Shown: piece by piece, positions 1,670 to 53,944 of the stretch
Position numbering within the stretch: position 1 is the first letter of the stretch
How the letters are laid out: each line of letters starts with the position of its first letter
Assembly (NCBI RefSeq): GCF_009914755.1
Contig: NC_060925.1
Reading direction: 5' to 3' (one strand)
DNA from: the human T2T-CHM13v2.0 reference genome, Homo sapiens
Length of the DNA stretch: 64,000 nucleotides
The notes under the pieces: model-generated
The model's input: only the letters and a program-made list of their open reading frames with translations
The model's database searches: none
What the model was told of the DNA's origin: nothing
Made by a program: the position numbers and the translations under genes

Positions 1670-4600
1670 AAGTTGGGGGCATTAAGACCTTAAATTCTGA
1701 TGGGTTTTTTTTACTTGTGGAAGTGGCCCCCCGACTCCCAGCAAAAGTAGCATCCCACCCAGTGAAAAGTGGCCTTTTCCCTTCACTCTGAGAAGATTAC
1801 TTTACATTGCCTGAGGAAACAGTAATAGTCTCTGCTGAGGCAGACACCATACAAGACAATGCTGATTCTCTTCAGATCCAGCATTGGATCACCCCTCTTT
1901 GTTCTAGTCCTATAATGAGACTCAAGTCCCGGTAGACCCCTAAAGATGAGGTACAAAGCACCATGCATGAGGTAATGTGCTACATTTCAAAATAACTAGT
2001 TGAGTTTTCTAAGGTATATAAGTAGAAATCCAGGCATACATGTGGGAACGGATATTAATGGTGTTGGATAACAGTGGAAGGAACATAAAGTTAGATCAGG
2101 CTGAATTTATTGATAGAGGCTAACTAGGCAGAGATTCTGCATTTAATACTGCAGCTTGGAGAGTTAGAAAGGGCTCTCACATTTTGTTTGGTTTATTGGC
2201 TAAGACATGGATCAAAAGGTGTTCCACTGTGAGAAAATTGGAAATGGCTGTTCTGCCTTGGTTTAATGTAGAGAAGAGAATTCAAAGGCTTTTGGAGATT
2301 GGAATGTTAGAGTGGATTTGTAATTTAAGACCTATTCACCAACACTGGGATGGTCTGAAAAACATATCCTTACCAATACTTTGAGAAATAAATATGGGAG
2401 GAGAAATAAATATGTCTTCTTTGTACACCAGACCTTACAGTGAGAACCATAGCCATTCAGTTAAATTACCCAAATCAATGGGAGTAACTGGGATTCTGGT
2501 GTAGCAGGAGCTAAATGGTGGCACTCAACTACCGAAGGCAAAGTAGTTCTGGGTACTGTAATAGCAGAGTCAAAGCAGTAGTCAGAACAGTCTGATTTGC
2601 ACACACCTATGACACTGGCGAGTAATCATGGCATTCCTAGAAGTGAAACAGATAGGAAGCCTACTAAATTCTTTGTTGATTTGTGTAAGCAGAAAACTTC
2701 TAGGTCTTGTAAACAAAAGTCTAACTCAAATTGCAGAAACAAAGAATCATGGCCCTTCGGTCGGTTGCCAAACTTGAGCAAGTTTACAGACCCAGAAGCC
2801 ATTGAATAAAGGGGAGATTGAGTCCCCTCCAGAAAGGCCCTTGGTACACTACTACAAATTTAGACTGTTAATCTTTCTCCCAGCCTCTCCCAAAGGCACC
2901 TATGGCCTTTTATTAGGGTAACTGTGTGTTGGGAAAAGGAAATAATCAGAATTTTGGGGACTACTGGACACTGGCTCTGAACTGACATTGATTTCAGGAG
3001 ACCCAAAACATCACTGTGTCCCTCCAGTCACAGGAGAGGTTTATGGGGCTCAGGTGATCAATGGAGTTTTAGCTCAGGTCAGTCTCACAGTGGGTCCAGT
3101 GGGTCCCTGAGCCCATCCGGTGGTTATTTCCCCAGTGCCAGATGCACAATTAGAATAAACATACCTAGTAGTTGGCAAAATCCCCACATTGGGTCTCACC
3201 TGTTATGATGGGAAAGGCCAAATGGAAGCCATTATAACTACTTCTATCTGGGAAAATAGTAAATTAAAAACAATACCACATTCTTGGAGGCACTGCTGAC
3301 ATTAGTGCCACCAACAAGAACTTAAATGATGTAGCAGTGCTAATCCCCACAACATTCCCATTCAATTATGCTATTTGGCCTGTGCAGAAGACAGATGAAT
3401 CTTGGAGAATGACAGTGGATTACTGTAAACTATACCAAGTTATGACTCCAATTGAAGCTGTTATACCAGATGTGGTTTCATTGACTGAACAAATTAACAC
3501 ATCGTGGTACTTGTTATATAGCTGTTAATCTGACAATTGCTTTTTCCTCCATGTCTGTCCATAGGCCCACCAGAAACAGTTTGCTTTCAGCTAGCAAGGC
3601 CAGCAATACACCTTCTACCTCATGGGTATGTAAACAGGTAAACAGTTCAGTCCTAAGTTGTAACTTAGTTTGCAGGGATCTTGATTGCCCATTGCCCTTC
3701 CCTTCAGTAAGATACCACACTGCTCCATTACATTGATGACATTAAGCTGACTGGACCTAGTGAGCAAGAAGTAGCAGCTACTTTACACTTATTGATGAGA
3801 AATTTGCATGTCAGAAGTGGGAAATAAATATGACTAAAATTCAGGGACCCTCCTGAAATTGCCTTTGCAAAAATTATAACAGTGAGAAAAATCTGACATA
3901 AGAAATTATGACACTGGAAAAAATAGGACCTACCCAACTCCATCTTGCTTCTAACTTCCAAGCTATCCTTGTTCATCTGGGGCATAGGCCAGATGAACTA
4001 TTAGAATAATTTAGTTTGTAGTTTAACTTTGAAACAAAGATGATGACAGCCCCTTCCTAAAACAAACCCCCTCCTTGCCTGGGGACCAGACTGCCTTTGT
4101 AAAACTCACAAATTAGCCACAAGATTAGAAAATGTGGCTCCGCAGTTATGCAGCCGGAGGCCACAAGATTTCTAACCTTCTCAAATTTTCCTATAGATAA
4201 CATCACTATCATAAAACCCAAGATGGGTGTTTGAAGTATTTTTCAGACCCTGAATTCTGATAGACGAGCTAGCACCACCCAGAGTAGTAAACTGGCTCAT
4301 CTGGTCCTGTGGCTTCTACCCAGGATCTGACTCAGTGCAAGAAGACAAGCTCTGACTCCCTGTGATTTCCTCCCTAACCCGACCAGTTAGCATTCCCCAT
4401 TCTTCAGCCCCCTGCCTGCCAAAGTATCTCTAAAAAACTTTAGCCTCCAAATTTTCAGGGCTTCTGAAACTCCTGTCCTTCTGCTTACCTGGCTCTGTGT
4501 GTGTTAAACTCTTTCTTTACTGCAATGCCACTGTCTTGGCAAGTTGGCTGTATCTGTGCAGTGGTCAGTAAGAACTCATTGGGTGGTTATATTCTACCTC

Positions 4601-4685
4601 AGTGAAATTTAGGGGTCCAATGGTGTAGGGCATGTCAAGATATTTTTTCTGAGGTGAAGAATAAATTGCATCTGGCCTCCCAGTG
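1670..4685 (+). mobile_element. Degenerate ERVL internal region (gag-pro-RT remnant), interrupted by an LTR8-family LTR
   Basis: RT peptide IPTTFPFNYAIWPVQKTDESWRMTVDYCKL (3337-3528); TACATTGATGAC (YIDD) near 3729; protease-like CTACTGGACACTGGCTCT (LLDTGS) near 2961; many stops and frameshifts. Confidence 0.9.
3854..4591 (+). mobile_element. Solo ERV1 LTR, LTR8/8A/8B family
   Basis: Starts TGAAATTGCCTTTGCAAAAATTATAAC...CAACTCCATCTTGCTTCTAAC, ends GAACTCATTGGGTGGTTATA; ERVL RT resumes at 4592. Confidence 0.85.
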
Positions 4686-8190: not shown

Positions 8191-8552
8191 TGATATAGTT
8201 TCGCTGTGTCCCCACCCAAATCTTGTCTTGAATTCCCACATGTTGTGGGAGGGACCCAGTGGGAGATGATTGAACCATGGGGGTGGGTCTTTCCCATGCT
8301 GTTCTCGTGATACTGAATGAATCTCAAGAGATCTGATGGTTTAAAAAAAGTGGGAGTTTCCCTGCACAAACTCTTTTTTTTTTTTGCCTGCCGCCATCCA
8401 CGTAAGGTGCGACTTGCTCCTCCTTGCCTTCCGCCATGATTGTGAGACCTCCCCAGCTATGTGGAACTGTATGTCCAATTAAACTTCTTTCTTTTGTAAA
8501 CTGCCCAGTCCCGGGTATGTCTTTATCAGCAGCGTGAAAATGGACTAATACT
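8191..8552 (+). mobile_element. Solo THE1 (THE1B-like) MaLR LTR
   Basis: TGATATAGTTT...GGACTAATACT; 5-bp TSD CTGCC at 8186-8190 and 8553-8557. Confidence 0.95.
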
Positions 8553-15024: not shown

Positions 15025-16019
15025 TCCATATAAATGCTTAATTAATGTTAATAAAGGACAAATGATTCTTTTTGCTGGCAAGATGGAAAAATTTGGATTC
15101 ATAGTTTGCTGAACAGTGATATCCAGAGTGTCTGGCTTAACAGATGATTGAGACCATGCTACCTGATCTTGTTGACTTCTTTTCCACATTGAGATTTCTA
15201 TTTATCTTCAGCCAATCTTTCTACCACCATCTCAACTCACCGTAAAAAGTATCTCATTTCTTCTCCATTATTAACCCATGTATTTTTACTTTCATCTTGT
15301 ATCCTTTTATTTTATTTTGGAAGCATATATATAACGTTTGCCCTTCCCATTCTTTCCGCCATCTCACTCCCCAGCTCCCACGTGAATCATTCAAGAGTTA
15401 AACAAGAGAAATGGTTCCTGTCAGTGCAGGTGATGAAAGAGATCATTACAACATAACTGAAGGTCAAGACAAGGATAAATACCAGCAAAATCATGTAAGA
15501 ATGATGCTATCAGGTAAGCCATGATTGTGTAAGAAAAACCAATGAAAGTTCATTTTTCCAGGACAGTTAATTTTTTGCAGTATGGGAAAGGCTATGTGTT
15601 ATAATAATTTTTAAGCTATTTAGGGAGAAACTGTAATCACTACTCTACCTTGGGACACCTTCATCCTACTATGAAGCACTGGAAATGGTGGTAGGTGAGA
15701 TTGATTGTATTTTCATAAGCCATGCCAGAGGCTAAATGCCTTTGCAAGAGTGGGCTTAGAAGTTATGTCAAGGAAAAACATAGCAGCTTTGGAACTGAAG
15801 GACACTAGAGAATTCTGAGAAGAAACAGAAAGTTTAAAAGGCCATGGAACCAGATGAAAGGAGAAAGGGTAGTGTATATAGAGAAAGAAGTTCTCTGAGC
15901 TGGCCTACCCAATGCCTATCAGGGACTTCCTGGAAGTCTGGCTATTGATACATTTGCTCTTTCATGCTGCAGTGAGATAAACTAGTTAATTAGAGGCTCA
16001 ACATCCAGTGTTCAACTTA

Positions 16020-23132: not shown

Positions 23133-23576
<444 letters not shown>

Positions 23577-24535
23577 TAGACAACCAGGAAAACTTGAATT
23601 TAGTGTTTATCCTTAACTGAGCTTTGTGGATCATGACTAACAATCGCCAATAGCTTGGGAAGTTTAAGAAGGACTTTTTGCGTTTAGGAAGTAGAGAGGG
23701 CAGAGATAAACAAAGGAACCAGAAACGGAGCATTGGGTTCCAGGAGGCACAAGAGGCAGCAGAAGTGACTGAACATTGATATCTTGAGCTCAAGAGCTCT
23801 AAATAAGCCCAGGCAGTTCAAAGCCGGGCTCTAACTGTGGCTGAAATTGCTGACCTGCGTATAGTTTATAATCTTTTATAACCTCACACTCTAGGAAAGT
23901 AATCTTGTGATTTTATCACAGCCAAAATGAACATTTTGTCTCATTGCTTTATACCTGAGGACAAAAGAACTAAGGCATTACATTAGAGATGTCAATCATG
24001 GAGGCTGCCGGCCCTCTGTCCTTCCTCAGTGAAACAGACCTGTGCGTAGCCACTGCTGAGCAGACTTTCCTGTGCTGCCAGGGCCATTCTGTTCTCCTCC
24101 CTTCCTTGCCTACTTTGTAACTATTATTTGGACAGAGACGAGCACTTGATCCACAATTAGCTAGTGACATATTAAATTATTGACTTGACATTAGACAGAG
24201 GTTGCCATCCAGTTGTATTTCTTCTTTCAGGTGTTTGAAATGGAAAATACTGAGAATATTAGATAGTCGGTGACTGTAGCTGAAGCTGAAAGTATGCATA
24301 GAGGCTCCATGTGGGGTTATGAAGAGAGGACAAGCAGGAGCTGGCAAAGATATCCTGCCAGAGACTATATCGCCGAGAGGAAAGTGCTAGAGAAAATTGA
24401 CGATCACTAGAATTGCCTTAGTTTCTGATGGCTTCCTGGTTCCAGGTCCAGTTCTAGTTCTGCTCTGCTCCACATCTGTGCTTACAAACAAACTCATCTT
24501 TTGAGGTCAATTGAATGTCTTTTCCTTGCAATGGA

Positions 24536-24972
24536 TGTATTAGTCAGGATTTTCTAGAGGGACAGAACTAGTAGGATATATATATACACAAAGAGGAGTT
24601 TATTAAGTATTAACTCACAGGATCACAAGGTCCCACAATAGGTTATCTGCAAGCTGAGAGGCAAGGAGGGCCAGTCCATGTCCCAAAACTGAAGAACTTG
24701 GAGTCTGATGTTTGAGGGCAGGAAGCATCCAGCACAGGAGAAGATGTAGGCTGAGAGGCTAGGTCCGTCTCTCCTTTTCATGTTTTTCTGCCTGCTTTAT
24801 ATTCACTGGCAGCTGATTAGATTGTGCTCACCAGATTAAGGGTGGATCTGCCTTTCCCAACTCACTGACTCAAATGTTAATCTCCTTTGGCAACACCCTT
24901 ACGGACACACCCAGGAGCAATACTTTGTATCCTTCAATCTAATCAAGTTGACACTCAGTACTAACCATCACA
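24536..24972 (-). mobile_element. MLT2A (MLT2A1-like) HERV-L 3' LTR
   Basis: TGTATTAGTCAGGATTTTCTAGAGGGACAGAAC...CAGTACTAACCATCACA, adjoining the polypurine tract (plus AGTCCACCCTTTGTC). Confidence 0.92.
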
Positions 24973-27960
24973 AGTCCACCCTTTGTCGACTTGAACCTAT
25001 ATGCATCTCCTGAGGTCATGCATAATCTTCAAATAAAGACAATAATAAGGTCATAATTATGCCTAACATAATACAACTATCCTTTGTACAACCAGAAACA
25101 CACCAATCCCCAACCCAAATACTATTACATAAAGTTAACAATACTTAAATGCTGATATGAAGTTAATAAATCTTATGTCACATGATAAAAGAAAAGGAAA
25201 TAAAATAAAGATTTTTTTCTTAGTACAAGTGTATATATACATGCACAAACATGTTTTTAGCAAAAGAAGGGGTAAATAGTCATGACAATTACAGTCCTCA
25301 TTTCTGCAGCTGGTCACATGGTCGTAGCTGGTATTGATAACTACCTTCTTCTACTACTTCTGTATTCCCTTTGCCTTCAATTAGCACCTCAGCAGGTTGT
25401 GGTTTTTGTACTGGTGGAGTGACCCAAACCTTCATTCCTGAGGGGTCTGGGCCTTTTATAGTCCTGCCTGGATCGCGCTGTTGTAGTTTCCCATTGACCT
25501 TAATCTCAGGGCATGGTAATACTAACGGATGCCCTAATGGGATCTCCTGTACTCCATGCATCCTCTTCCTTACCTCCATTGTGGAGTAGTAGACTGATTT
25601 CATCTTGATAGTCTGGGTCAATCACCCCAGCCAACACTGTAACTCCTTTCTTAGCCTGTTGACTTAAAGGTAGGAGGGTCCCAAAGTGTCCAGGTGGTAA
25701 TCTTAACTTCTAGTTAAATGGAATTGTTGTTGTGTCTCCTGGTGGCAGCGTTCCTCCCTCTAGAACTAAGACCTCTAGGCCAGCAGAACGTAAGATCACG
25801 GGAGCAGGAAGCAAAAATGTTGCTAGTTGATCACTAGGGGTGATGGTGAGTGGTGCCACTTCCACCACTTGATTTCTGGACCTGTGAATCTTGGCAATGG
25901 GAGAAACAGTACCATATGTTGGATGCTGATTCAGAGCATGCACAGCCTTCTGGAGAACTTTGCCCCAGCCCTGCAAAGTATTGTCATCTAGTAAGCATTG
26001 TAATTGTGACTTCAAAAGGCCATTCTACCGTTCTGTGAATCCAGCTGCTTCAGAATCATGAGGAACATGGTAAGACCAGTGAATTCCATGAGCATGATTC
26101 CACTGCCATGCTTCTTTAGCCACTTAAGTGAGTGCCTTGGTCAGAGACAATGCTGTGTGGAATACCATGACAGTGAACAAGGCATTCCATGAGTCCACGG
26201 ATTGTAGCCTTGGCAGAAGCATTGCATGGAGGATGGGCAAACCCATATCTGAAGTAAGTGTCTATTCCAGCGAGGACAAACCTCTGCCCTTTCCATGATG
26301 AGAGAGGTCTAGCATAATCAACCTGCCACCAGGTAGCTGCCTGATCACCCCAAGGAATGGTGCCATGTTGAGGGCTCAGTGTTGGTCTCTGCTGCTGGCA
26401 AATTGGGCACTCAGCAGTGGCTGTAGCCAGGTCAGCCTTCATGAGTGGAAGTTCATGTTGCTGAGTCCATGTGTAATTTCCATCCCTGCTACCATGGCTA
26501 CTTTGCTCATGGGTCCATTGAGTGATGACAGGGGAAAGAGGCTGAGTGGTGTCCACAGAGTGGGGCATCCCATGCACTTGATTATTAAACTCCTCCTCTG
26601 CTGAGGCCACCCGTTGGTGCATGTGGCATGCACTCACATGGCATACAAGTATCTTCACAGTTTTTGCCCACTCAGAGGGGTCCAGCCACATACCTCTTCC
26701 CCAGATTTCTTTGTCACCAATTTTCCAATCATGCTTCTTCCAAGTCCCTGACCATCCAGTCAAATCATTGGCTATTGCCCATGAATCAGTATATAATCAC
26801 ACATCTGGCCATTTATCCTTCCATGAAAATTGCCCAACCAAGTTCTGCCCACTGGGAAGATTTCCCTTCACCGTTGTCCTTCAGGGATGTCCTAGAAAGG
26901 GGCTGTAGTGCTGCAGCTGTCCACTTTCAGGTGGTGCCTGCATATTGTGCAGAACCATCTGTGAACCAGACCCTAGTCTTCTCTTCCTCTGTCAACTGAT
27001 CATAGGGAACTTCCCATGATTCCATCTGTGCAGGCTGGGGGAGAGAAGGCAGGGTGGCAGGAGTGGAGAACATGGGCATTTGAGCCACTTCCTTATGTAA
27101 CTTACTTGTGCCTTCAGGACCTGCCCAAAACTGATCACATATATACCACTTCCATTTGGTGATGGAATGCTGCTGTGCATGACCCACTTTATGGCTAGAT
27201 GGATCAGAAAGCTCCCAGTTCATGATAGGCAGTTCAGGTCGCATGGTGACTTGATGACCCGTAGTCAAAAGTTCAGTTTCCACCGAAGCCCAGTAACAGG
27301 CCAAGAGCTGTGTCTCAAAAGGAGAGTAGTTATCTGCAGAAGATGGCAGGGCCTTGCTCCAAAATCCTAGATGCTTCTGTTGAGATTCACCTATGGGAGC
27401 CTGCTAAAGGCTCCAAACAGCAACCCTATCTGCCACTGACACCTCAAGCACCATTGGATTTGCTGGGTCTTATGGCCCAAGTGGCAGAGCAGCTTGCACA
27501 GCAGCCCGGACCTGTTGCAGAGCCTTCTTCTGTTCTGGATCCCACTCAAAACTGGTAGCCTTTTAGGTCACTTGATAAATAGGCCTGAGTAACACACCCA
27601 AATGAGGAATGTGTTGCCTCCAAAATCCAAATAGGCTCACTCAGCATTGTGCCTCTTTCTTGGTTGTAGGAGGAGCCAAATGCACAACGTATCCTTCACC
27701 TTAGAAGGAGTATCTAGACAGGCCCCACACCACTGGGCCCCTAGAACTTTTACTGAGGTAGAAGGTCCCTGGATTTTAGTCAGATTTATTTCCCATCTTC
27801 TGGCAAGCAAATGTTTCACCAATAAGTCTAGTGTGTTTGCTGCTTCTTGCTCACTGGATCCAATCAGCATAATGTCATCAATGTAACGGACCACTGTAAT
27901 ATCTGGCGGAAGTGAAAAGCGATCAAAGCCTCGCCGAATAAGGTTATGACATAAAGCTGG
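24973..27960 (-). pseudogene. HERV-L internal 3' half: RT (YIDD), RNase H, integrase, dUTPase-like region; disrupted
   Basis: Minus ORFs RYIDDIMLIGSSEQ, VWFTDGSAQY, ECPICQQQRP...WWQVDY...IVSDQGTH, RSAGLEVLVLEGGTLPPGDTT. Confidence 0.95.
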
Positions 27961-28725
27961 AACTTCCACATGGTGTTGAGCCTGCAGGTGCACAGAAGTC
28001 AAGAATTGAGTTTTGAGAACCTCCGCCTAGACTTCAGAAGATGTATGGAAACGCCTGTATACCCAGGCAAAAGTTTGCTGCAGGGGCAGGGCCCTCATGG
28101 AGAACCTCCACTAGGGTAGTGCAGAAGGGAAATGTGGCGTGAGTGCCCCCCACACAGAGTCCCCACTGGGGCACTGCCTAGTGGAGCTGTGAGAAGAGGG
28201 CTACCGTCCTGAGCCCAGAATGGTAGATCCACCAACAGCTTTCACCATGCTCCTGGAAAAGCCACAGACACTCAATGCCAGCCCGTGAAAGCAGCTGGGA
28301 GGGAGGCTGTACCCTGCAAAGTCACAAAGGTGGAGATGCCCAAGACCAGAGGAAAGTTTTTGCATCAGCGTGACCTGGATATTAGAGCTGGAGTCAAAGG
28401 AGATCGTTTTGGAGCTTTAAAATTTGCCCCAATAGATTTCAGACTTGCATGGGCCCTGTAACCCCTTTGTTTTGGCTAATTTCTCCCATTTGGAACTTCT
28501 GTATTTACCCGATACCTATACCCTCATTGTGTCCAGGAAGTAACTAGCTTGCTTTTGATTTTACAGGCTCATAGGTGAAAGGGACTTGACTTGTCTCAGG
28601 TAAGCCTTTGGACTGTGGACTTTTGGATTAATGCTGAAATGAGTTAAGACTTTGGGGGACTGCTGGGAAGGCATGATTGGTTTTGAAATGTGAGGACATG
28701 AGATTTGGAGGGGCCAGGGGCAGAG
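27961..28725 (+). mobile_element. THE1 internal region, 3' portion only
   Basis: CTTCCACATGGTGTTGAGCCTGCAGGTGCACAGAAG...; colinear with the reverse complement of about 52007-52780; ends in polypurine tract GGAGGGGCCAGGGGCAGAG. Confidence 0.95.
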
Positions 28726-29079
28726 TGATATGGTTTGGCCATGTTCCCACCCAAATCTCAACTTGAATTGTATCTCCTAGGATTCTCACATGTTGTGGGA
28801 GGGACCCAGGGGTAGGTAGTTGAATCATGGGGGTCAGTCTTTCCCATGTTAATTTCGTGATAGTGAATAAGTCTCACGAGATCTGATGGGTTTATCAGGG
28901 GTTTCTGCTTTTGCTTCTTTCTCATTTTCTCTTGCTGCCACCATGTAAGAAGTGCATTTCACTTCCTGCCATGATTCTGAGGCCTTCCCAGTCATGTGGA
29001 ACTGTAAGTCCAATTAAACCTCTTTTTGTTCCCAGTTTTGGGTAAGTCTTTATCAGCAGCATGTAAATGAACTAATACA
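28726..29079 (+). mobile_element. THE1A-like 3' LTR
   Basis: TGATATGGTTTGG...GGGTTTATCAGGGGTTTCTGCTTTTGC...GAACTAATACA. Confidence 0.92.
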
Positions 29080-29224
29080 ATGGAAATAGCTGAGATCCAG
29101 CAGAGATAAGGGAAACACATGCCTTCCTGAGATCATAGACAAGGAAGGCCTCCAAGTCCTTGGATGGCGAGAGTGCAGGTCCCTCAAGTGGTCAACTGGA
29201 CAGAGCTGAGAGCTTTAAGGGCTG

Positions 29225-29410
29225 CAGACATGTCACAACTGTCATTTCATTTGCTCTTTATAATGACCTTAGAGGAGAGCAGAGCAGGCACTATTATTGT
29301 CTTCATTTTACTCATGAGAAAAGTGCCCAGGGTTTAATGAGTTATTCTGAGCCATGTGAATAACACTTGGCAGAGGTGTGACTTGAACCTAGGTATCCCC
29401 ACTCAAATTG
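29225..29410 (-). mobile_element. MIR
   Basis: CTATTATTGTCTTCATTTTACTCATGAGAAAAGTG core-like sequence. Confidence 0.6.
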
Positions 29411-29444
29411 CCTGATTTTTCTCATTAGGCCAGGCCTCTTGTCC

Positions 29445-29600
29445 AGGGCTATGCATCAGAATCACCTGGGGTGCTTGTGATACTTGTGCTTGAGCCTCAG
29501 CCTTTGAGAGTCTGATTCAGTAAATCTGGGAGCTGGGCCTGAGCCCCTGTGTTTTTTCACTTTCTGTGGGTGAATGTGAGGAGCTTCCCTTGCTAAGCAT
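29445..29600. mobile_element. MER5-family hAT-Charlie MITE remnant
   Basis: GCATCAGAATCACCTGGGGTGCTTG...CTGATTCAGTAAATCTGGG. Confidence 0.7.
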
Positions 29601-31362
29601 CTGCCTCAGACAATGCAGGCTCAGCAGCACCTCCATTGTGGTGTTACCCCAAGCTGGCTTATAGCCTTCAGCCCTGAGGAAATGCCATATGATGGGGGAG
29701 AAGTGAAGAAACTACTTTTCACTCAGTATATTCAGTGTCTAAGGAAAGACTGGAACCATGGTAGTAGTCAAGGGACGATTTAGGGCCTTTTACCTTCACA
29801 ATCTTCATGAATCGCCCATCCTTTGACAAAGACAATTAAAACAATGTTATGTATTATGTGTATTATATCCGTACAAAAATATAGTATCTTAAAAACTCAT
29901 TTGGAACATATAATCCACCCCTAAACCATGGACCTGCTATGCAAATGTAGTTTCACAGCCAGTCCCACAGCTCCCTTTTCAGGTTGACTGTCACCACTAA
30001 ACCCTTTCTCTAGATAAATCCTGGAGCTGTCAGGATGACTTATATGTGTTGCTGAAAGGGGAGTTATTTTAGTAGTGAGTGAAAAGACAGACAGCCTTAG
30101 AGAACTTCAGGGGTCTTCTGGTTGCAAGCCCTTGTTGATCTGGCACTAGGCTGGAGCTCCAGAGGCCAGGGGAACTGCTGGGTCAGGGGCTATAGAAGGA
30201 CAGTATCTCCCTAGTTTCTCCTAAAAAGGAAAAGAGATGAGCTGTCTGATGCTGAAATGCAGTGTAATTGTAATAGGAAACTGCCCAAGCAGTGACAAAA
30301 AAGATCACAGGACATATAAGGAGATGGAAGGATTAAGGAAATTGTCCATTGGCTCTTTCTCCAAGTGCTCTGCTGATTTTTCCACTCTGTTGTCACCTGA
30401 CCTCTCCTGTTGTGCAGCTCAGCATCTTAAATTGCAAAGCTGGCTTAGTCCCATGAAGGGTTTCCAACAAGATAAGCTTTTAGGAGGAAAAGGTAGACGT
30501 TAGGTGAGCAGGAAAAGGCCTCTAAGTCCCTCAACATTTGGGAAGTCCGTTTGTTTGGGTCCAGAGGGGGATAAGGAAGCTGAAAGGATGTCTACTCCAT
30601 GGGAGACAGGAGACAGGACACAAGGTGACATTAGAAAAGGGAGGATGTCCTGCAGACGGAGCTTGGAGGGGATGCCAGGATGGAAGAGCCATAACAAGAA
30701 TGTTAGTGTTAGAAAATAGGAATTTACTAAGACAAACATAACTCTTAGTTCTGAGTGTGAGCTCATGGAGGACCTAGAAGGAGATGCCAGCGTTTCAAAA
30801 CCACAGTGGAAAAGCTGGATACCATAAGCCTGGGCTCGGAACCACATAGCTTTGGAAAGACAGCTTTGTGCTGTGTTTCTTGAGTTTGAGGGCTGGCCTC
30901 TGGGTTTTGCCCCATTCTCCTTGGAACTACACTTACCTCCTACTGTGCTGGGAATAAAAAACAAATGGTTAAAGAAAGAAACAATTTAGTCTCCACTACT
31001 GATTTTAAAAAATAAATATCAAGTGACTGAGTGCTTTCTGAAGTTTAAAACTCTACCTTTACGTGGGTTAATAAGAACATTAGGACATAGCAAATGCTGC
31101 TTCCTGTGGGTCCTGCCTGATTGGAATTGAGTTTTTAAGTGGCCAAATCTGCTTGGGTTATTCTGCTTATGTAAGACATGACCCTGAAAGTGGATACATT
31201 GATATTTTAGTCTCAAGATGTATTTTTAATTCTCTAGTGATTGACTTATGCTTTGTCATGTACCAAGTACCCGGTATTAATAAATGGAATAAGTTGGACT
31301 AATGGTGCATCACTGAGGAATGGGGAGATCTGACTTCTTGGTAGGTAAAGACTTTTAATCCT

Positions 31363-31465
31363 TTTTTTTTTTTTTTTTTTTTTTTAAGATAGAGTTTCAC
31401 TCTGTGGCTCAGGCTGGAGTGCAGTGGCGTGATCATGGGTCACTGTAGCCTTAAATTCCTGGGCC
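31363..31465 (-). mobile_element. 5'-truncated AluJ/FLAM
   Basis: Poly-T followed by about 80 bp of Alu 3' end. Confidence 0.85.
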
Positions 31466-41440: not shown

Positions 41441-43184
41441 TTAAAATCTCCAAGGAAAACTCAGGAGTCACATTAAACCAATGGTTCAAACCTGGTCACC
41501 GTTTCCCATTGTCTGGATTTACTGAAGGATCCATTTGGTGGAGGTCAGAGAGGAATTAAGCTAGTGATGGAGGATTGAGGGTGGGGGATGAAGAGGTCAG
41601 GAGTAGGATGAGAGTGAAAGCGGGGAGGGCTTTAGGTATTTTTCTCCTCACAGGGCTTTCCTGTGTTCCTGGGAAGGTTTTCGTTTTCTGAAGCTCCAGA
41701 TTGCCTTATCTGCAAATCAGGGAGGGTGCTGCTGTGTGCTTTGAAGACCAGTACTGGATGTGGTGGGCAAAGCACAGAAGCGCAGACTGAGATTATTAGT
41801 GCAGATTTGGTATCTATCAGGTCAGATCGGGGCTGCTGTCTGTCAGTTTGGTTAGATTTTTAGGGGGTGTCTCTGAGGCAAATAATGAATAAAAAAGTAA
41901 TACTGTGCTGTTTATCACCTGCTGGTCTTTAAACTATAGTTAAATTTCCCCTGATAATTTCTTTTCCATTAATCTTTCTTCCTGTTAGGAAATCTTTGGA
42001 AAATTGCTGACTTGGCAGCTGAAAATATTTTCTTGGCAAGCCCTTTGAAATTGTAATTGTATTAAAGGGCCTTTTTCTTATCTTTGCCTTTAAATAACTT
42101 TTTTTCTCCCTGGTTCTCTGTTGGAGAAAGAAGAATAAAATGCATTGTTCATCCTTATCCTCAACACATCATTATTTTTGAACCTTTGAAGAGCAGTGAA
42201 ATTCTCTATTGTGAGGGATTTTAGTCTTAAATCAACAGCATGTCAGGAAGCATTAGTGAGGCACAACATCACATGCATATATGGACGGGTCTGGTCATCA
42301 AGCATAAACGAGCTGCCAGCAAACCAAGCTACAGAAACAAGAGTTCTTAATTCCCCTACCGCCATTCCCACACATTTAGACTCTAGGGATGCAAATACAA
42401 TATACCAATTATGGTAACACTTTCTGACCTCAACTCATCAAGAAATATAAAACTGCGTGTTCAATATTTTGTGGAGCCACTGTTTCAAAATTGATTTTTA
42501 AGCAATGGCTACTCGTGTGTTTTTTTGTCTCCTCTGGGAATCTGGGGTTCGGAAGGGCAGTGCATTTCTCTTGATGTCTCTCTGAGATAAATAAAAAGAA
42601 AATAGGAGGCCATTTTCAGGTTGGCCTCAAGGTCTCTCCCAGGCATCCAGACTCATTTTGTCATTCCTCTCCAGGGCTTATGCTTGGCCTACTGATCCCA
42701 GAGGAGAGAATCATAGAGAATTGTGGAATTGGAGAGCTGCAAATAGCCTGCCCTCATTTGTAAGTCACCCCTGATTCAGGCTACAGAGCTGCAGCTATTG
42801 ATGGCATCCATGGAAATGACTCTGGCCTTGAGGCTCAGCTTCTCACAGAGAAGCGGTTTTTCCCTTCTGCATCCAGTGCTTGATGGGAGACTTGACAAAG
42901 TGGTGGCAGAGCTGGAGCCTGAGGAAAACCCAACAGAGCTTGCATTTATTACAAAATACTGAATTGCTAAGTGCTAAATGAGATTGCCTCCATGTCCTGC
43001 TCATTGACTTACAGGAAAACAATGCACCCTCAAATAGCAGGTGGGGTTGGAATTAGGAGGAAGTGGTTGGAGACTGCACCAAAGAGCAGGGGGCCAACCA
43101 TGGTCCACACAAGGAGATGTGGAAGTGTTTCATTCTACCCAATGTTCTTGTGGAGTTAGTTGTTACTTAGCTAAAAAGAATGTT

Positions 43185-51637: not shown

Positions 51638-53944
51638 TGTATTAGTTCATTTTCATGGTGCTGATAAAGGCATACCAAAGACCGGGCAACTTACAAAGGA
51701 AAGAGGCTTAATGGAGAACTCACAGTTTCACATGGCTAGGGAAGCCTCACAATCATGGTGGAAGGCAAGAAGGAGCAAGTCACATCTTACATGGATGGTG
51801 GCAGGTAAAGAGAGAGCTTGTGCAGAGAAACTCCTGTTTTTAAAACCTTCAGATCGTGTGAGACCCTTGCATTTTCACAAGAACAGCATGTTAAAGACCT
51901 GCCTGCATGATTTGATCATCTCTCCTTGGGTACCTCCCACAACATGTAGGAATTATGGGAGCTACAAGATGAGATTTGGATGGGGACACAGAGCCAAATC
52001 ATATCATTCCACCCCGACCTCTCCCAAATCTCATATCTTCACATTTCAAAACCAATCATGCCTTCCCAATAGTCTCCCAAGGTCTCAGCTCATTTCAGTG
52101 TTAACTCAAACGTCCACAGTCAAAAGTCTCATCTGAGACAAGGCAAGTCCCTTCTGCCTATGAGCCTGTAAAATCAAAGCAGGTTAGTTACTTACTAGAT
52201 AGAATGGAGGGTACAGGCATTAGGTAAATACAGCCATTCCAAATGGGAGAAATTGGCCAAAACAAAGGGGCTACAGGCCCCATGCAAGTCTGAAATCCAG
52301 CAGGGCTGTCAAATCTTAAAGCTCCAAAATGTTCTCCTTTGACTCTGTCTCACATCCAGGTCATGTGAGATGTAAGAGGTAGGTTCCAATAGTCTTGGGC
52401 AGCTCTGTCCCTGTGGCTTTGCAGGGTATAGCCCCTCTTCTGGCTGCTTTCATGGGCCGGCATTGAGTGTCTGGCTTTTCCAGGCACACAATGTAAGCAG
52501 TCAGTGGATCTACTGTTCTGGGGTCTGGAAGATGGTGGCTCTCTTCTCACAGCTCCACTAGATGGTGCCCCAGTAGGGACTCTGTGTGGGGGCTCTGACC
52601 CCACATTTCCCTTTTGCACTGACCTAGCAGAGGTTCTCCACGAGGGCCCTGCCCCTGCAGCAAACTTCTGCCTGGGTATCCAGATGTTTCCATACATCCT
52701 CTGAAATCTAGGCAGAGGTTCTCAAACCCCAGTTCTTGACTTGTGTGCACTTGCAGGCCCAACACCATGTGGAAGCTGCCAAGGCTTGGGGCTTCCACCC
52801 TCTGAGGCCATGGCCTGAGCTCTGCAATGAACCCTTTCAGCTACAGCTGTAGCAGCTGGAACACAGGGCACCAAGTCCCTAGGCTGCAAACAGCACAAGG
52901 ACCAAGGGCTCAGCCCATGAAGCCACTTTTTCCTCCTAGGCCTCCAGGCCTGTGATGAGAGGGGCTGCTGTGAAGACTTCTGACATGCTCTGGAGACATT
53001 TCCCCATTGTCCTAGGGATTAACATTCAGCTCCTTGTTACATATGCAAATTTCTGCAGCTGGCTTGAATTTCTCCTCAGAAAATGGGATTTTCTTTTCTA
53101 TCACATTGTCAGGATGCAAATTTTCCAAACATTTATGTTGTTTCCCTTATAAAACTCAATGTCTTTAATAGCACCCAAGTCACCTCTTGAATGCTTTGCT
53201 GCTTAACAATTTATTCTGCCAGATACCCTAAATCATCCCTCTCAAGTTCAAAGTTCCACAAATCTGTAGGACGGGGCAAAATGCTGCCAGTCTTTTTGCT
53301 AAAACATAACAAGAGTCACCTTTACTCCAGTTCCCAACAAGTTTCTCATCTCCATCTGAGACCACCTCAGGCTGGATTTCATTGTCCATATCATTATCAG
53401 CATTTTGGTCAAAGCCATTCAACAACTCTCTAGGGAGTTCCAAACTTTCCCACATTTTCCTGTCTTCTTCTGACCCCTCCAACCTGTTCCAACCCCTGCC
53501 TGTTACCCAGTTCCAAAGCCACTTCCACATTTTTGGATATCTTTTCAGCAGTGCCCCACTCTACTGGTACCAATTTACTGTATTAGTTCATTTTCATGCT
53601 GCTGATAAAGACATACCTGAGACTAGACAATTTACAAAGGAAACAGGTTTAATGGAAAACTCACAGTTCCACATGGCTGGAGAAGCCTCACAATCATGGT
53701 GGAAGGCAAGGAGGAGCAAGACACATCTTACATAGATGGCGGCAGGCAAAGACAGAAAGGAGGGAGCTTGTGTAGAGAAATTCCTGTTTATAAAACCATC
53801 AGATCTTGTGAGACCCATTTCCTATCATGAGAACAGCATGGGAAAGACCTGCCTCCATGATTCAATTACCTCCCACTGGGTCCCTCCCACAATACATGGG
53901 AATTCAAGATGAGATTTGGGTGGGGACACAGCCAAACCATATCA
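51638..53944 (-). mobile_element. Full-length THE1 (THE1B-like) provirus: 3' LTR 51638-52006, internal 52007-53578, 5' LTR 53579-53944
   Basis: Two LTRs TGTATTAG...ATATCA; 5-bp TSD ACAAC at 51633-51637 and 53945-53949; gag-derived ORF MWKWLWNWVTGRGWNRLEGSEEDRKMWESLE. Confidence 0.97.
53858..53868 (-). promoter_or_regulatory. DUX4-type motif TAATTGAATCA in THE1 5' LTR U3
   Basis: Plus strand TGATTCAATTA matches the TAAYBBAATCA consensus. Confidence 0.55.

What the first reader, a model, noticed from the sequence alone, without database searches (positions are those of the whole stretch)
24531..29084. Back-to-back HERV-L/THE1A chimera enclosed by one 5-bp target-site duplication
Seen directly: ATGGA (24531-24535) | MLT2A LTR (-) | HERV-L dUTPase-IN-RH-RT (-) | junction at 27960/27961 | THE1 internal (+) | THE1A LTR (+) | ATGGA (29080-29084). 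Both outer ends are 3'-LTR U5 termini (...CTAATACA) of different families facing outward, and neither 5' half is present. Established: ERVL/MaLR integration makes 5-bp TSDs (as at CTGCC and ACAAC in this window), and THE1 is non-autonomous and thought to use ERVL enzymes. Inference: one intasome joined the U5 ends of two different cDNAs into a single site (bimolecular concerted integration), and the free inner ends were then joined by repair. If so, this is physical evidence that HERV-L and THE1A shared particles and integrase. A chance 5-mer match is roughly 1 in 1000 for a single test.
Basis: partly seen in the sequence, partly recalled or inferred. Interest (0 to 1): 0.82.

Follow-up and report, generated by a model that had tools for sequence, protein, structure and literature searches.

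The report
Two retroelement halves sharing one insertion site
Two old, broken retrovirus-like remnants of different families lie back to back in a human intron and share one five-base insertion scar, most simply read as both having been inserted in a single event about 30-50 million years ago.

Summary
ATGGA sits at 24531-24535 and 29080-29084, flush with two outward-facing 3' LTR ends. The left half (24536-27961, minus strand) is an ERV-L-type remnant: LTR plus a 5'-truncated, much-broken pol in the order RT, RNase H, integrase, dUTPase. The right half (27963-29079, plus strand) is a THE1/MaLR-type internal piece plus LTR. The halves abut with one unassignable base, no host DNA and no middle ATGGA. 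No other genomic copy scored spans the junction. Kin flanks show that ATGGA is host DNA. Full-length kin of both families carry 5-bp duplications. Chance identity of two 5-mers here is about 1 in 657. Both halves show the same private divergence, about 0.065 substitutions per site. The test is weak, because sampled kin of both families are of similar age.

My best reading (0.55) is one integrase event that used the U5 ends of two cDNAs. Rivals are a chance 5-mer match after a fusing deletion, and a double insertion into one target followed by a deletion. The decisive check, orthologous loci in other primates, could not be run. The family names MLT2A and THE1A are not testable here. The remnant is old, has no envelope gene and is of no concern.

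The parts
24531..24535 (.). Left copy of the 5-bp host duplication (ATGGA)
   Evidence: Read directly. The 5-mers flanking the same LTR end in 9 of 9 ERV-L-type kin share only 1-3 of 5 bases with it, so it is host DNA and not part of the LTR.
24536..27961 (-). ERV-L-type (HERV-L-like) 3' half-element as a whole. It comprises the 3' LTR, a short non-coding stretch and a 5'-truncated, broken pol remnant in the order RT, RNase H, integrase, dUTPase. There is no gag, no protease, no 5' LTR and no envelope gene.
   Evidence: Pfam hits are. Kin proteins of macaque and baboon carry PF00665 and PF00692 in one protein. The 62 other genomic matches are 77-94% identical (83-87% for the long ones), and none runs past window 27965. 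Breaks: truncation at the 5' side; 9 indels private to this copy in the internal region, 6 of them not multiples of three; at least 1 frame change and 2 in-frame stops in the integrase-dUTPase part against kin proteins.
24536..24972 (-). Its U5 end faces the left flank.
   Evidence: The whole 437 bases align to both LTRs of the full-length kin L029, and partly or fully to the LTRs of L026, L027 and L030. The kin element ends at these positions are flanked by 5-bp duplications.
27962..27962 (.). Inner junction: one base that cannot be assigned to either half
   Evidence: BLAST ends of the ERV-L-type kin fall at 27957-27961 (9 of 9). BLAST starts of the THE1-type kin fall at 27963-27964 (9 of 9). 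Ungapped extension past the junction falls to background. There is no ATGGA at the junction.
27963..29079 (+). THE1/MaLR-type 3' half-element as a whole: the 3' part of the internal region plus the 3' LTR
   Evidence: 39 other genomic matches are 84-88% identical. All start at query 159-174, which is window 27958-27973, and none spans the junction. No Pfam family was found in 6 internal pieces. Full-length kin are 2262-2283 bp (4 of 5), so about half an element is present.
28726..29079 (+). Its U5 end faces the right flank.
   Evidence: The 354 bases align end to end, or to within 2 bases of the end, with both LTRs of 4 of 5 full-length kin. In the fifth (L022) the 5' LTR match is split by a roughly 300-base insertion. 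9 of 9 kin align to the last base, and 8 of 9 share the terminal dinucleotide.
29080..29084 (.). Right copy of the 5-bp host duplication (ATGGA)
   Evidence: Read directly. The 5-mers flanking the same LTR end in 9 of 9 THE1-type kin share 0-2 of 5 bases with it.

Best explanation
One integrase-mediated event inserted the U5 end of an ERV-L cDNA and the U5 end of a THE1 (MaLR) cDNA into the two strands of a single target, five bases apart. Each cDNA was represented only by its 3' half.

Repair of the staggered cuts gave the single ATGGA duplication. The two inner ends were joined head to head, either before integration (strand switching or end joining inside one complex) or after it (host end joining).

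Shown: the anatomy, the exact termini, the 5-bp duplication, the clean junction, the uniqueness of the junction, and the equal divergence of the halves.

Inferred: that a single intasome did it, and therefore that the integrase serving ERV-L also served THE1, which has no pol. The event dates to roughly 30-50 million years ago, in an anthropoid ancestor.
For: - ATGGA is flush with both outward LTR termini, and the match is exactly 5 bp.
- It is host DNA: 0 of 18 kin carry it next to the same LTR ends.
- Five bases is the duplication length of both families. It is perfect in 4 of 5 THE1-type kin and in 2 of 4 ERV-L-type kin, with one more matching 4 of 5. It is also seen in 2 of 2 other MaLR-like elements of this window. 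PMC2836564 (passages) gives 5 bp for MaLR.
- Chance identity is about 1 in 657.
- Both halves are 3' halves whose inner ends abut, with one unassigned base and no host DNA.
- Neither flank has ERV-L or THE1 sequence within 3 kb, which excludes a nested insertion.
- The two outward termini are identical over 9 bases, so one integrase could plausibly read both.
- Private divergence is the same in all four segments. NJ terminal branch, K2P: 0.063 and 0.067 for the ERV-L half, 0.066 and 0.063 for the THE1 half. Non-CpG values are 0.057-0.060.
- In vitro, a retroviral integrase joins pairs of U5 ends from separate donor DNAs with the correct duplication, and prefers such pairs (PMC8742673, passages).
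- MLT2 LTRs share the target-site base bias of MaLRs (PMC2836564, passages). MaLRs lack pol (PMC3769647, passages).
- My own arithmetic from the copy numbers in PMC3836709, Table 1: about 300 outward-facing MLT2A/THE1 LTR pairs within 5 kb are expected by random placement genome-wide. That gives under 0.5 chance 5-mer matches in the whole genome, and about 1e-5 in one 64-kb window.
Against: - No orthologous locus from another primate could be read. The empty site, the contiguity of the flanks and a same-branch origin are therefore untested.
- The equal-age test has little power. Sampled kin of both families have similar branches (0.033-0.091). Their LTR-LTR distances overlap only at the edges: THE1-type 0.093-0.154, ERV-L-type 0.081-0.098.
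- The inferred target fits the published weak T...A flanking bias on one side only (direct reading against PMC2836564).
- This is a single locus found after the fact by a scan, and I do not know how many windows that scan read.
- No in-vivo precedent for a two-family event turned up in the literature searches.
- The pair estimate assumes random placement and is my own rough arithmetic.
Confidence: 0.55

Rival explanations
1. Two independent insertions, an ERV-L provirus and a THE1 element, landed close together in divergent orientation. A later deletion of at least about 4 kb removed both 5' parts and the host DNA between them. The two surviving flanking 5-mers, one from each element's own duplication, are identical by chance.
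For: Deletions that fuse neighbouring repeats are ordinary (established knowledge). The families overlapped in time, so both could have landed here independently (PMC11359688, passages). The finding was picked after the fact. The junction, with one unassigned base, fits any end-joining repair.
Against: It needs a 1-in-657 coincidence at exactly the family's duplication length, flush at both termini. It also needs a rare configuration. My estimate from the copy numbers in PMC3836709 gives under 0.5 such chance matches genome-wide, even when solo LTRs are counted and no direct internal-to-internal junction is required. The flanks are unique DNA in a repeat-poor stretch.
Confidence: 0.2
2. A double insertion into one target. 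One element inserted first and made the ATGGA duplication. The other later inserted precisely into one copy of that duplication, giving three ATGGA copies. A single internal deletion then removed both 5' parts and the middle copy.
For: Double insertions that reuse a target-site duplication are documented for other transposable elements, including an inverted LTR-retrotransposon pair with a target-length motif at its junction (PMC5932611, passages). The route yields exactly the observed outer junctions and allows different insertion times.
Against: No middle ATGGA is left. Exact reuse of one 5-bp site is very unlikely for elements with only a weak target bias (PMC2836564, passages), and a roughly 4.2-kb deletion confined to the two elements is needed as well. 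The equal divergence of the halves is not required by this model.
Confidence: 0.12
3. A nested insertion of THE1 into an ERV-L provirus that had its own ATGGA duplication, followed by two deletions. One of the deletions ran exactly from the THE1 LTR terminus to the provirus end.
For: MaLR-in-ERVL nesting is common, with 1,842 exact events listed in Table 1 of PMC2836564 (passages).
Against: It needs a base-exact deletion at both of its ends plus a second deletion. No ERV-L sequence remains right of the THE1 LTR within 3 kb.
Confidence: 0.03

Closest known systems
Concerted integration of two U5 ends from separate donor DNAs in vitro (PMC8742673, passages read)
   Same: Two U5 ends on separate molecules are joined to one target with the family-specific short duplication. 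In that assay, U5/U5 pairs were preferred over U3/U5 pairs.
   Different: That is a test-tube reaction with identical donors of one virus. Here the ends belong to two different element families, the event is in a germline genome, and the free inner ends have been joined.
Aberrant one-ended retroviral integrations completed by host repair (PMC5041404, passages read)
   Same: A normal integrase junction at one end. The other viral end is truncated and joined by host machinery, sometimes to further viral DNA in either orientation.
   Different: Those proviruses have only one integrase-type junction and usually carry host rearrangements. Here both outer junctions are integrase-type and share one intact 5-bp duplication. 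The table of structures for that paper is a supplement that I could not open.
Double insertion of transposable elements into one target site (PMC5932611, passages read)
   Same: Two elements sit at one target, and inverted LTR-retrotransposon pairs are reported.
   Different: Double insertions keep a copy of the duplication between the two elements, and both elements are whole. Here there is no middle copy and both elements are halves.
Chimeras made by template switching inside LTR-retrotransposon particles (PMC5131818, passages read) and collinear recombinant ERVs such as HARLEQUIN (PMC5753468, passages read)
   Same: Sequences of two different RNAs present in one particle end up in a single integrated DNA.
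   Different: Those chimeras are collinear, keep a 5' and a 3' LTR, and can amplify. This one is inverted, has two 3' LTRs and is single-copy: none of the 39 and 62 other matches spans the junction.
The proposal that MaLRs are moved in trans by ERV-L (PMC5131818, citing McCarthy and McDonald 2004 for mouse; PMC2836564; PMC3769647; passages read)
   Same: THE1 lacks pol. The LTR termini, duplication length and target bias resemble those of ERV-L, and the families were active in simian primates at overlapping times.
   Different: The published support is by similarity and statistics. This locus would be a physical joint product of the two families.

Membership tests
ERV-L (HERV-L, class III / ERV3) | pol encodes a dUTPase downstream of integrase (PMC5753468: the ERVL lineage encodes a dUTPase) | tested here: met
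   Pfam dUTPase (E 1.4e-6, above cut-off) lies LTR-side of the integrase-type piece, with the RT and RNase H pieces further in. Kin proteins carry PF00665 and PF00692 in one protein.
ERV-L (HERV-L, class III / ERV3) | No envelope gene between pol and the 3' LTR | tested here: met
   No Pfam family was found in the stop-to-stop pieces between the dUTPase piece and the LTR. This rests on Pfam alone. [quoted passage not shown]
ERV-L (HERV-L, class III / ERV3) | 5-bp target-site duplication | tested here: met
   In full-length kin it is perfect in 2 of 4, matches 4 of 5 bases in 1, and 1 has an unclear end. In this copy it is met only jointly with the THE1 half.
ERV-L (HERV-L, class III / ERV3) | LTR of the MLT2A subfamily; leucine-tRNA primer site; gag | not testable with these tools
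The 5' half, which would hold the primer site and gag, is absent.
MaLR / THE1 | LTRs of about 350 bp around a roughly 1.6-kb internal region without pol | tested here: met
   The LTR is 354 bp. Full-length kin are 2262-2283 bp in 4 of 5, and the fifth is 2608 bp with an Alu-like insertion. No Pfam family was found in 6 internal pieces.
MaLR / THE1 | 5-bp target-site duplication | tested here: met
   Perfect in 4 of 5 full-length kin and in 2 of 2 other MaLR-like elements of the window. PMC2836564 gives the same length.
MaLR / THE1 | Subfamily A rather than B, C or D | not testable with these tools
   No repeat library is on hand. Kin identity of 84-88% does not name a subfamily.
Canonical concerted retroviral integration | Both host junctions at exact LTR termini, with a duplication of the family's length | tested here: met
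Canonical concerted retroviral integration | The two inserted ends are the U3 and U5 ends of one DNA | tested here: not met
   Both are U5 ends of 3' LTRs, and they belong to two different families.
Double insertion into one target site | A copy of the duplication between the two elements | tested here: not met
   There is no ATGGA at or near the inner junction. A later deletion could have removed it.
Collinear recombinant ERV families (HARLEQUIN type) | Same-orientation mosaic that is present in several copies | tested here: not met
   The halves are inverted. No other match spans the junction among the 39 and 62 scored. Only the best 40 candidates were scored per search, and closed regions are not shown.

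The most novel reading that the evidence does not exclude
The locus is a fossil of a heterologous two-genome integration. Incomplete cDNAs of an ERV-L and of a pol-less THE1 element, present in one complex, each offered their U5 end to one intasome. That would be the first physical joint product showing that ERV-L machinery moved MaLR elements in primates. It would also show that U5/U5 pairing, known in the test tube, happened in a germline.
Probability: 0.5. Interest if true: 0.72.

Novelty: new variant of a known kind. Interest (0 to 1): 0.6.

Why it matters
MaLRs make up about 3.65% of the human genome and encode no polymerase or integrase (PMC3769647). Which element moved them has been argued only from similarity of LTRs, duplication length and target bias.

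A joint insertion product of an ERV-L and a THE1 element would tie the two physically to one integrase event. It would also give a search image: outward-facing 3' halves of two families sharing one 5-bp duplication. That image can be counted genome-wide and across mammals, which makes the question testable by description alone.

If instead the match is chance, the locus is an ordinary pair of decayed repeats in a lncRNA intron.

Tried and rejected
- Paralogous empty-site test. I hoped the flanks lay in an older repeat whose other copies would show the uninterrupted site. The flanks 23455-24532 and 29085-31349 are not repeat-masked. They hit only Alu-like stretches about 1-2 kb away, so the test is not possible.
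- Naming by protein search. One search with the longest open pol piece returned 8 proteins. They were predicted macaque and baboon proteins and one fungal-labelled entry, none named HERV-L. The name therefore rests on domain order and the literature.
- Pfam on first-ATG ORFs found only RT. Stop-to-stop pieces at a looser threshold were needed for the other domains, and the integrase and RNase H hits remain below Pfam's cut-offs.
- Target motif. The inferred site fits the published weak flanking bias on one side only, so I gave it no weight.
- Co-located kin. I looked through the match tables for an ERV-L-type and a THE1-type match lying close together elsewhere, and saw none. This is no census, because only the best 40 candidates of more than 10,000 were scored in each search.
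- Nested insertion was rejected. A collinear recombinant family was rejected.
- I did not date against a family consensus, which is barred. I used pairwise distances, star and NJ branches, and the LTR pairs of kin.
- Literature. Searches (listings, plus passages of nine papers) showed no report of a fossil back-to-back chimera of two LTR families sharing one duplication. Supplements were closed, including the structure table of PMC5041404, the inverted-tandem table of PMC5932611 and the duplication-length figure of PMC2836564. Such a case could be listed there unseen.

Full report
**Observation.** The window reads ATGGA at 24531-24535 and again at 29080-29084. Between the two copies lies a 4544-base block, 24536-29079. 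RefSeq's masking marks it as repeat in patches from 24533 to 29084, while about 1 kb to the left and 2 kb to the right are unmasked. The match is exactly five bases, because the next base outward on either side breaks a six-base match. From the window's own 5-mer composition, two random 5-mers are identical with probability 0.00152, about 1 in 657.

**What the two halves are.**

The left half is on the minus strand.
- Stop-to-stop pieces hit Pfam RVT_1 (C-terminal part of the model only, E 7.8e-9), RT_RNaseH_2 (E 1.4e-4, below cut-off), Integrase_H2C2 (E 0.11, weak) and dUTPase (E 1.4e-6, above cut-off). In the element's sense they run in that order toward the LTR.
- The longest open piece finds 8 proteins: predicted macaque and baboon proteins and one fungal-labelled entry, 57-75% identical. 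Three of them carry an integrase core and a dUTPase in one protein.
- A dUTPase behind integrase marks the ERV-L lineage (PMC5753468, passages). The same table links HERVL internal sequence to MLT2A1 and MLT2A2 LTRs.
- No Pfam family appears between the dUTPase piece and the LTR, so no envelope gene is seen.
- The pol remnant is cut off at its 5' side. The internal region carries 9 indels private to this copy, 6 of them not multiples of three. There are at least one frame change and two in-frame stops in the integrase-dUTPase part.

The right half is on the plus strand.
- It is 763 bases of internal sequence with no Pfam family in 6 pieces, followed by a 354-base LTR.
- Its relatives are elements of 2262-2283 bases with two such LTRs. 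That is the MaLR/THE1 build described in PMC3769647.

No repeat library was on hand to test them.

**Bounds and junction.**
- The LTR bounds 24536-24972 and 28726-29079 hold. Each stretch aligns end to end with both LTRs of full-length kin, and the kin elements end there next to their own duplications.
- A search of the reference with 27800-29079 gave 39 matches besides the window itself, 84-88% identical. All start at query 159-174, which is window 27958-27973.
- A search with 24536-28100 gave 62 other matches. None reaches past query 3430, which is window 27965.
- Among the 9+9 fetched kin, ERV-L-type alignments end at 27957-27961 and THE1-type alignments begin at 27963-27964. Ungapped extension across the junction falls to background.
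- So the halves abut with one unassignable base, no host DNA and no third ATGGA.
- No other scored copy in the open part of the reference spans the junction. Only the best 40 candidates of more than 10,000 were scored in each search.

**Is ATGGA host DNA, and is five the right length?**
- Next to the same LTR ends, the 9 THE1-type kin have 5-mers sharing 0-2 of 5 bases with ATGGA. The 9 ERV-L-type kin share 1-3 of 5. None of the 81 cross pairs of those kin 5-mers is identical (my reading of the lists).
- Full-length kin carry perfect 5-bp duplications in 4 of 5 THE1-type elements. The fifth has a decayed end.
- Among the ERV-L-type elements evaluated, 2 of 4 are perfect, one more matches 4 of 5 bases and one has an unclear end. 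The fifth cut held only one LTR.
- Two other MaLR-like elements of the window also have 5-bp duplications: ACAAC around 51638-53944 and CTGCC around 8191-8552.
- PMC2836564 (passages) gives 5 bp for MaLR. [quoted passage not shown]
- The two outward LTR termini of the finding are identical over their last 9 bases.

**Age.** I used K2P distances among this copy and nine kin per family.

| Segment | NJ terminal branch | Star-tree branch |
|---|---|---|
| ERV-L LTR | 0.063 | 0.070 |
| ERV-L internal | 0.067 | 0.067 |
| THE1 internal | 0.066 | 0.074 |
| THE1 LTR | 0.063 | 0.070 |

- Without CpG sites the NJ values are 0.057, 0.059, 0.060 and 0.059. The two halves are therefore equally diverged within sampling error, which is about 0.008 for the shorter half.
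- The test could have failed and did not, but it is weak. Kin branches are 0.033-0.091.
- LTR-LTR distances within full-length kin are 0.093-0.154 for 5 THE1-type elements and 0.081-0.098 for 4 ERV-L-type elements. Both families were therefore inserting at about the same period anyway.
- The terminal branch also includes source-lineage differences, so it is an upper bound.
- With recalled human-lineage rates of about 1.1-2.2e-9 per site per year, 0.05-0.07 corresponds to roughly 25-60 million years. I give 30-50.
- This agrees with PMC11359688 (passages): HERV-L waves in simian primates until about 40-30 million years ago, and THE1 amplified in simian primates.
- The remnant is old and half-sized, has no envelope gene and resembles no present virus of people or livestock, so nothing needed referral on that ground.

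**Mechanism.** Both outer junctions have the marks of integrase: exact LTR termini and a duplication of the family's length. Both ends are U5 ends of 3' LTRs, and each half is the part of a cDNA that is made first.

From established retroviral reverse transcription, the 3' LTR is the first LTR to become double-stranded, and minus-strand synthesis then proceeds toward the 5' end. An incomplete product is therefore a 3' half with a finished U5 end.

The simplest single history is that two such products, one ERV-L and one THE1, were paired in one intasome and inserted five bases apart. Their inner ends were joined either beforehand (strand switching onto the other cDNA, or end joining) or afterwards by host repair. 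The sequence cannot tell these apart.

Pairing of U5 ends from separate donors, with the correct duplication, is the preferred outcome in one in-vitro system (PMC8742673, passages). Joining of a truncated viral end to other viral DNA in either orientation is seen in aberrant integrations (PMC5041404, passages).

**Rivals.**
- (a) Independent neighbouring insertions fused by a deletion, with flanking 5-mers identical by chance. This costs 1 in 657 on top of a rare arrangement. From the copy numbers in PMC3836709 (MLT2A1 3,780, MLT2A2 3,898, THE1A-D 49,182), random placement gives about 300 outward-facing LTR pairs within 5 kb genome-wide. That means under 0.5 chance matches in the genome before even requiring internal parts and a direct junction. 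This is my own rough arithmetic.
- (b) A second insertion exactly into the first element's duplication, as in the double insertions of PMC5932611, followed by one deletion that took the middle copy. This is possible but needs base-exact reuse of a site by elements with weak target bias.
- (c) A nested insertion with a base-exact deletion. I reject this, since no ERV-L sequence lies right of the THE1 LTR.

I put the single-event reading at 0.55, (a) at 0.20, (b) at 0.12 and (c) at 0.03. The rest goes to histories I have not thought of.

**Comparison and novelty.** The parts are ordinary members of two abundant, long-dead families. The unusual thing is their joint, inverted, two-3'-LTR arrangement inside one duplication.

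It fails the definition of a canonical provirus, which has U3 and U5 ends of one DNA. It fails the definition of a double insertion, because there is no middle duplication. It fails the definition of a collinear recombinant family, because it is inverted and single-copy.

It works like U5/U5 concerted integration, which is known in vitro, so I rate it a new variant of a known kind. My searches found no report of such a fossil, though supplements were closed.

**Limits.**
- No other primate genome was reachable.
- Both reference searches and both cuts were used for naming, bounding and dating.
- No genome-wide census was possible.
- Matches in closed regions are not shown.
- Kin were the best-scoring copies, not a random sample.
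- Family names below the ERV-L and MaLR/THE1 level are untested.

Noticed in passing
window 51638-53944 (-): A full-length MaLR-like element with two LTRs and a perfect 5-bp duplication (ACAAC). Its LTRs are about 70% identical to the THE1-type LTR of the finding and its internal part is 82% identical, so it is an older relative.
   Followed up: partly
window 8191-8552 (+): A solo MaLR-like LTR with a perfect 5-bp duplication (CTGCC), 72% identical to the THE1-type LTR.
   Followed up: partly
window 3698-3852 and 4592-4676 (-): Two short fragments 79-81% identical to part of the ERV-L internal region. They are the remains of another, older ERV-L-like element.
   Followed up: no
window 23259-23558 and 31360-31451: Alu-like stretches. 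They match insertions of about 300 bases inside two of the fetched kin elements (L022, L028), not the kin elements themselves.
   Followed up: partly
protein P0006: A 154-aa 'hypothetical protein' filed under Rhizopus delemar, on a 770-base contig, is 71% identical to the primate ERV-L integrase piece. It looks like primate DNA carried into a fungal assembly.
   Followed up: no
window 24536-29079 relative to LINC01307; 29429-29498: The chimera lies in the LINC01307 intron between exons 15375-15513 and 42675-42730. The THE1 half is in the sense orientation and the ERV-L half is antisense. A RefSeq 'active region' enhancer lies about 350 bases to the right of the THE1 LTR.
   Followed up: no
loci L021-L030: In this small sample the LTR pairs of the THE1-type kin (0.093-0.154) are on average more diverged than those of the ERV-L-type kin (0.081-0.098). 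This is opposite to what one might expect if THE1A were the younger family. The kin may be of mixed subfamilies.
   Followed up: no
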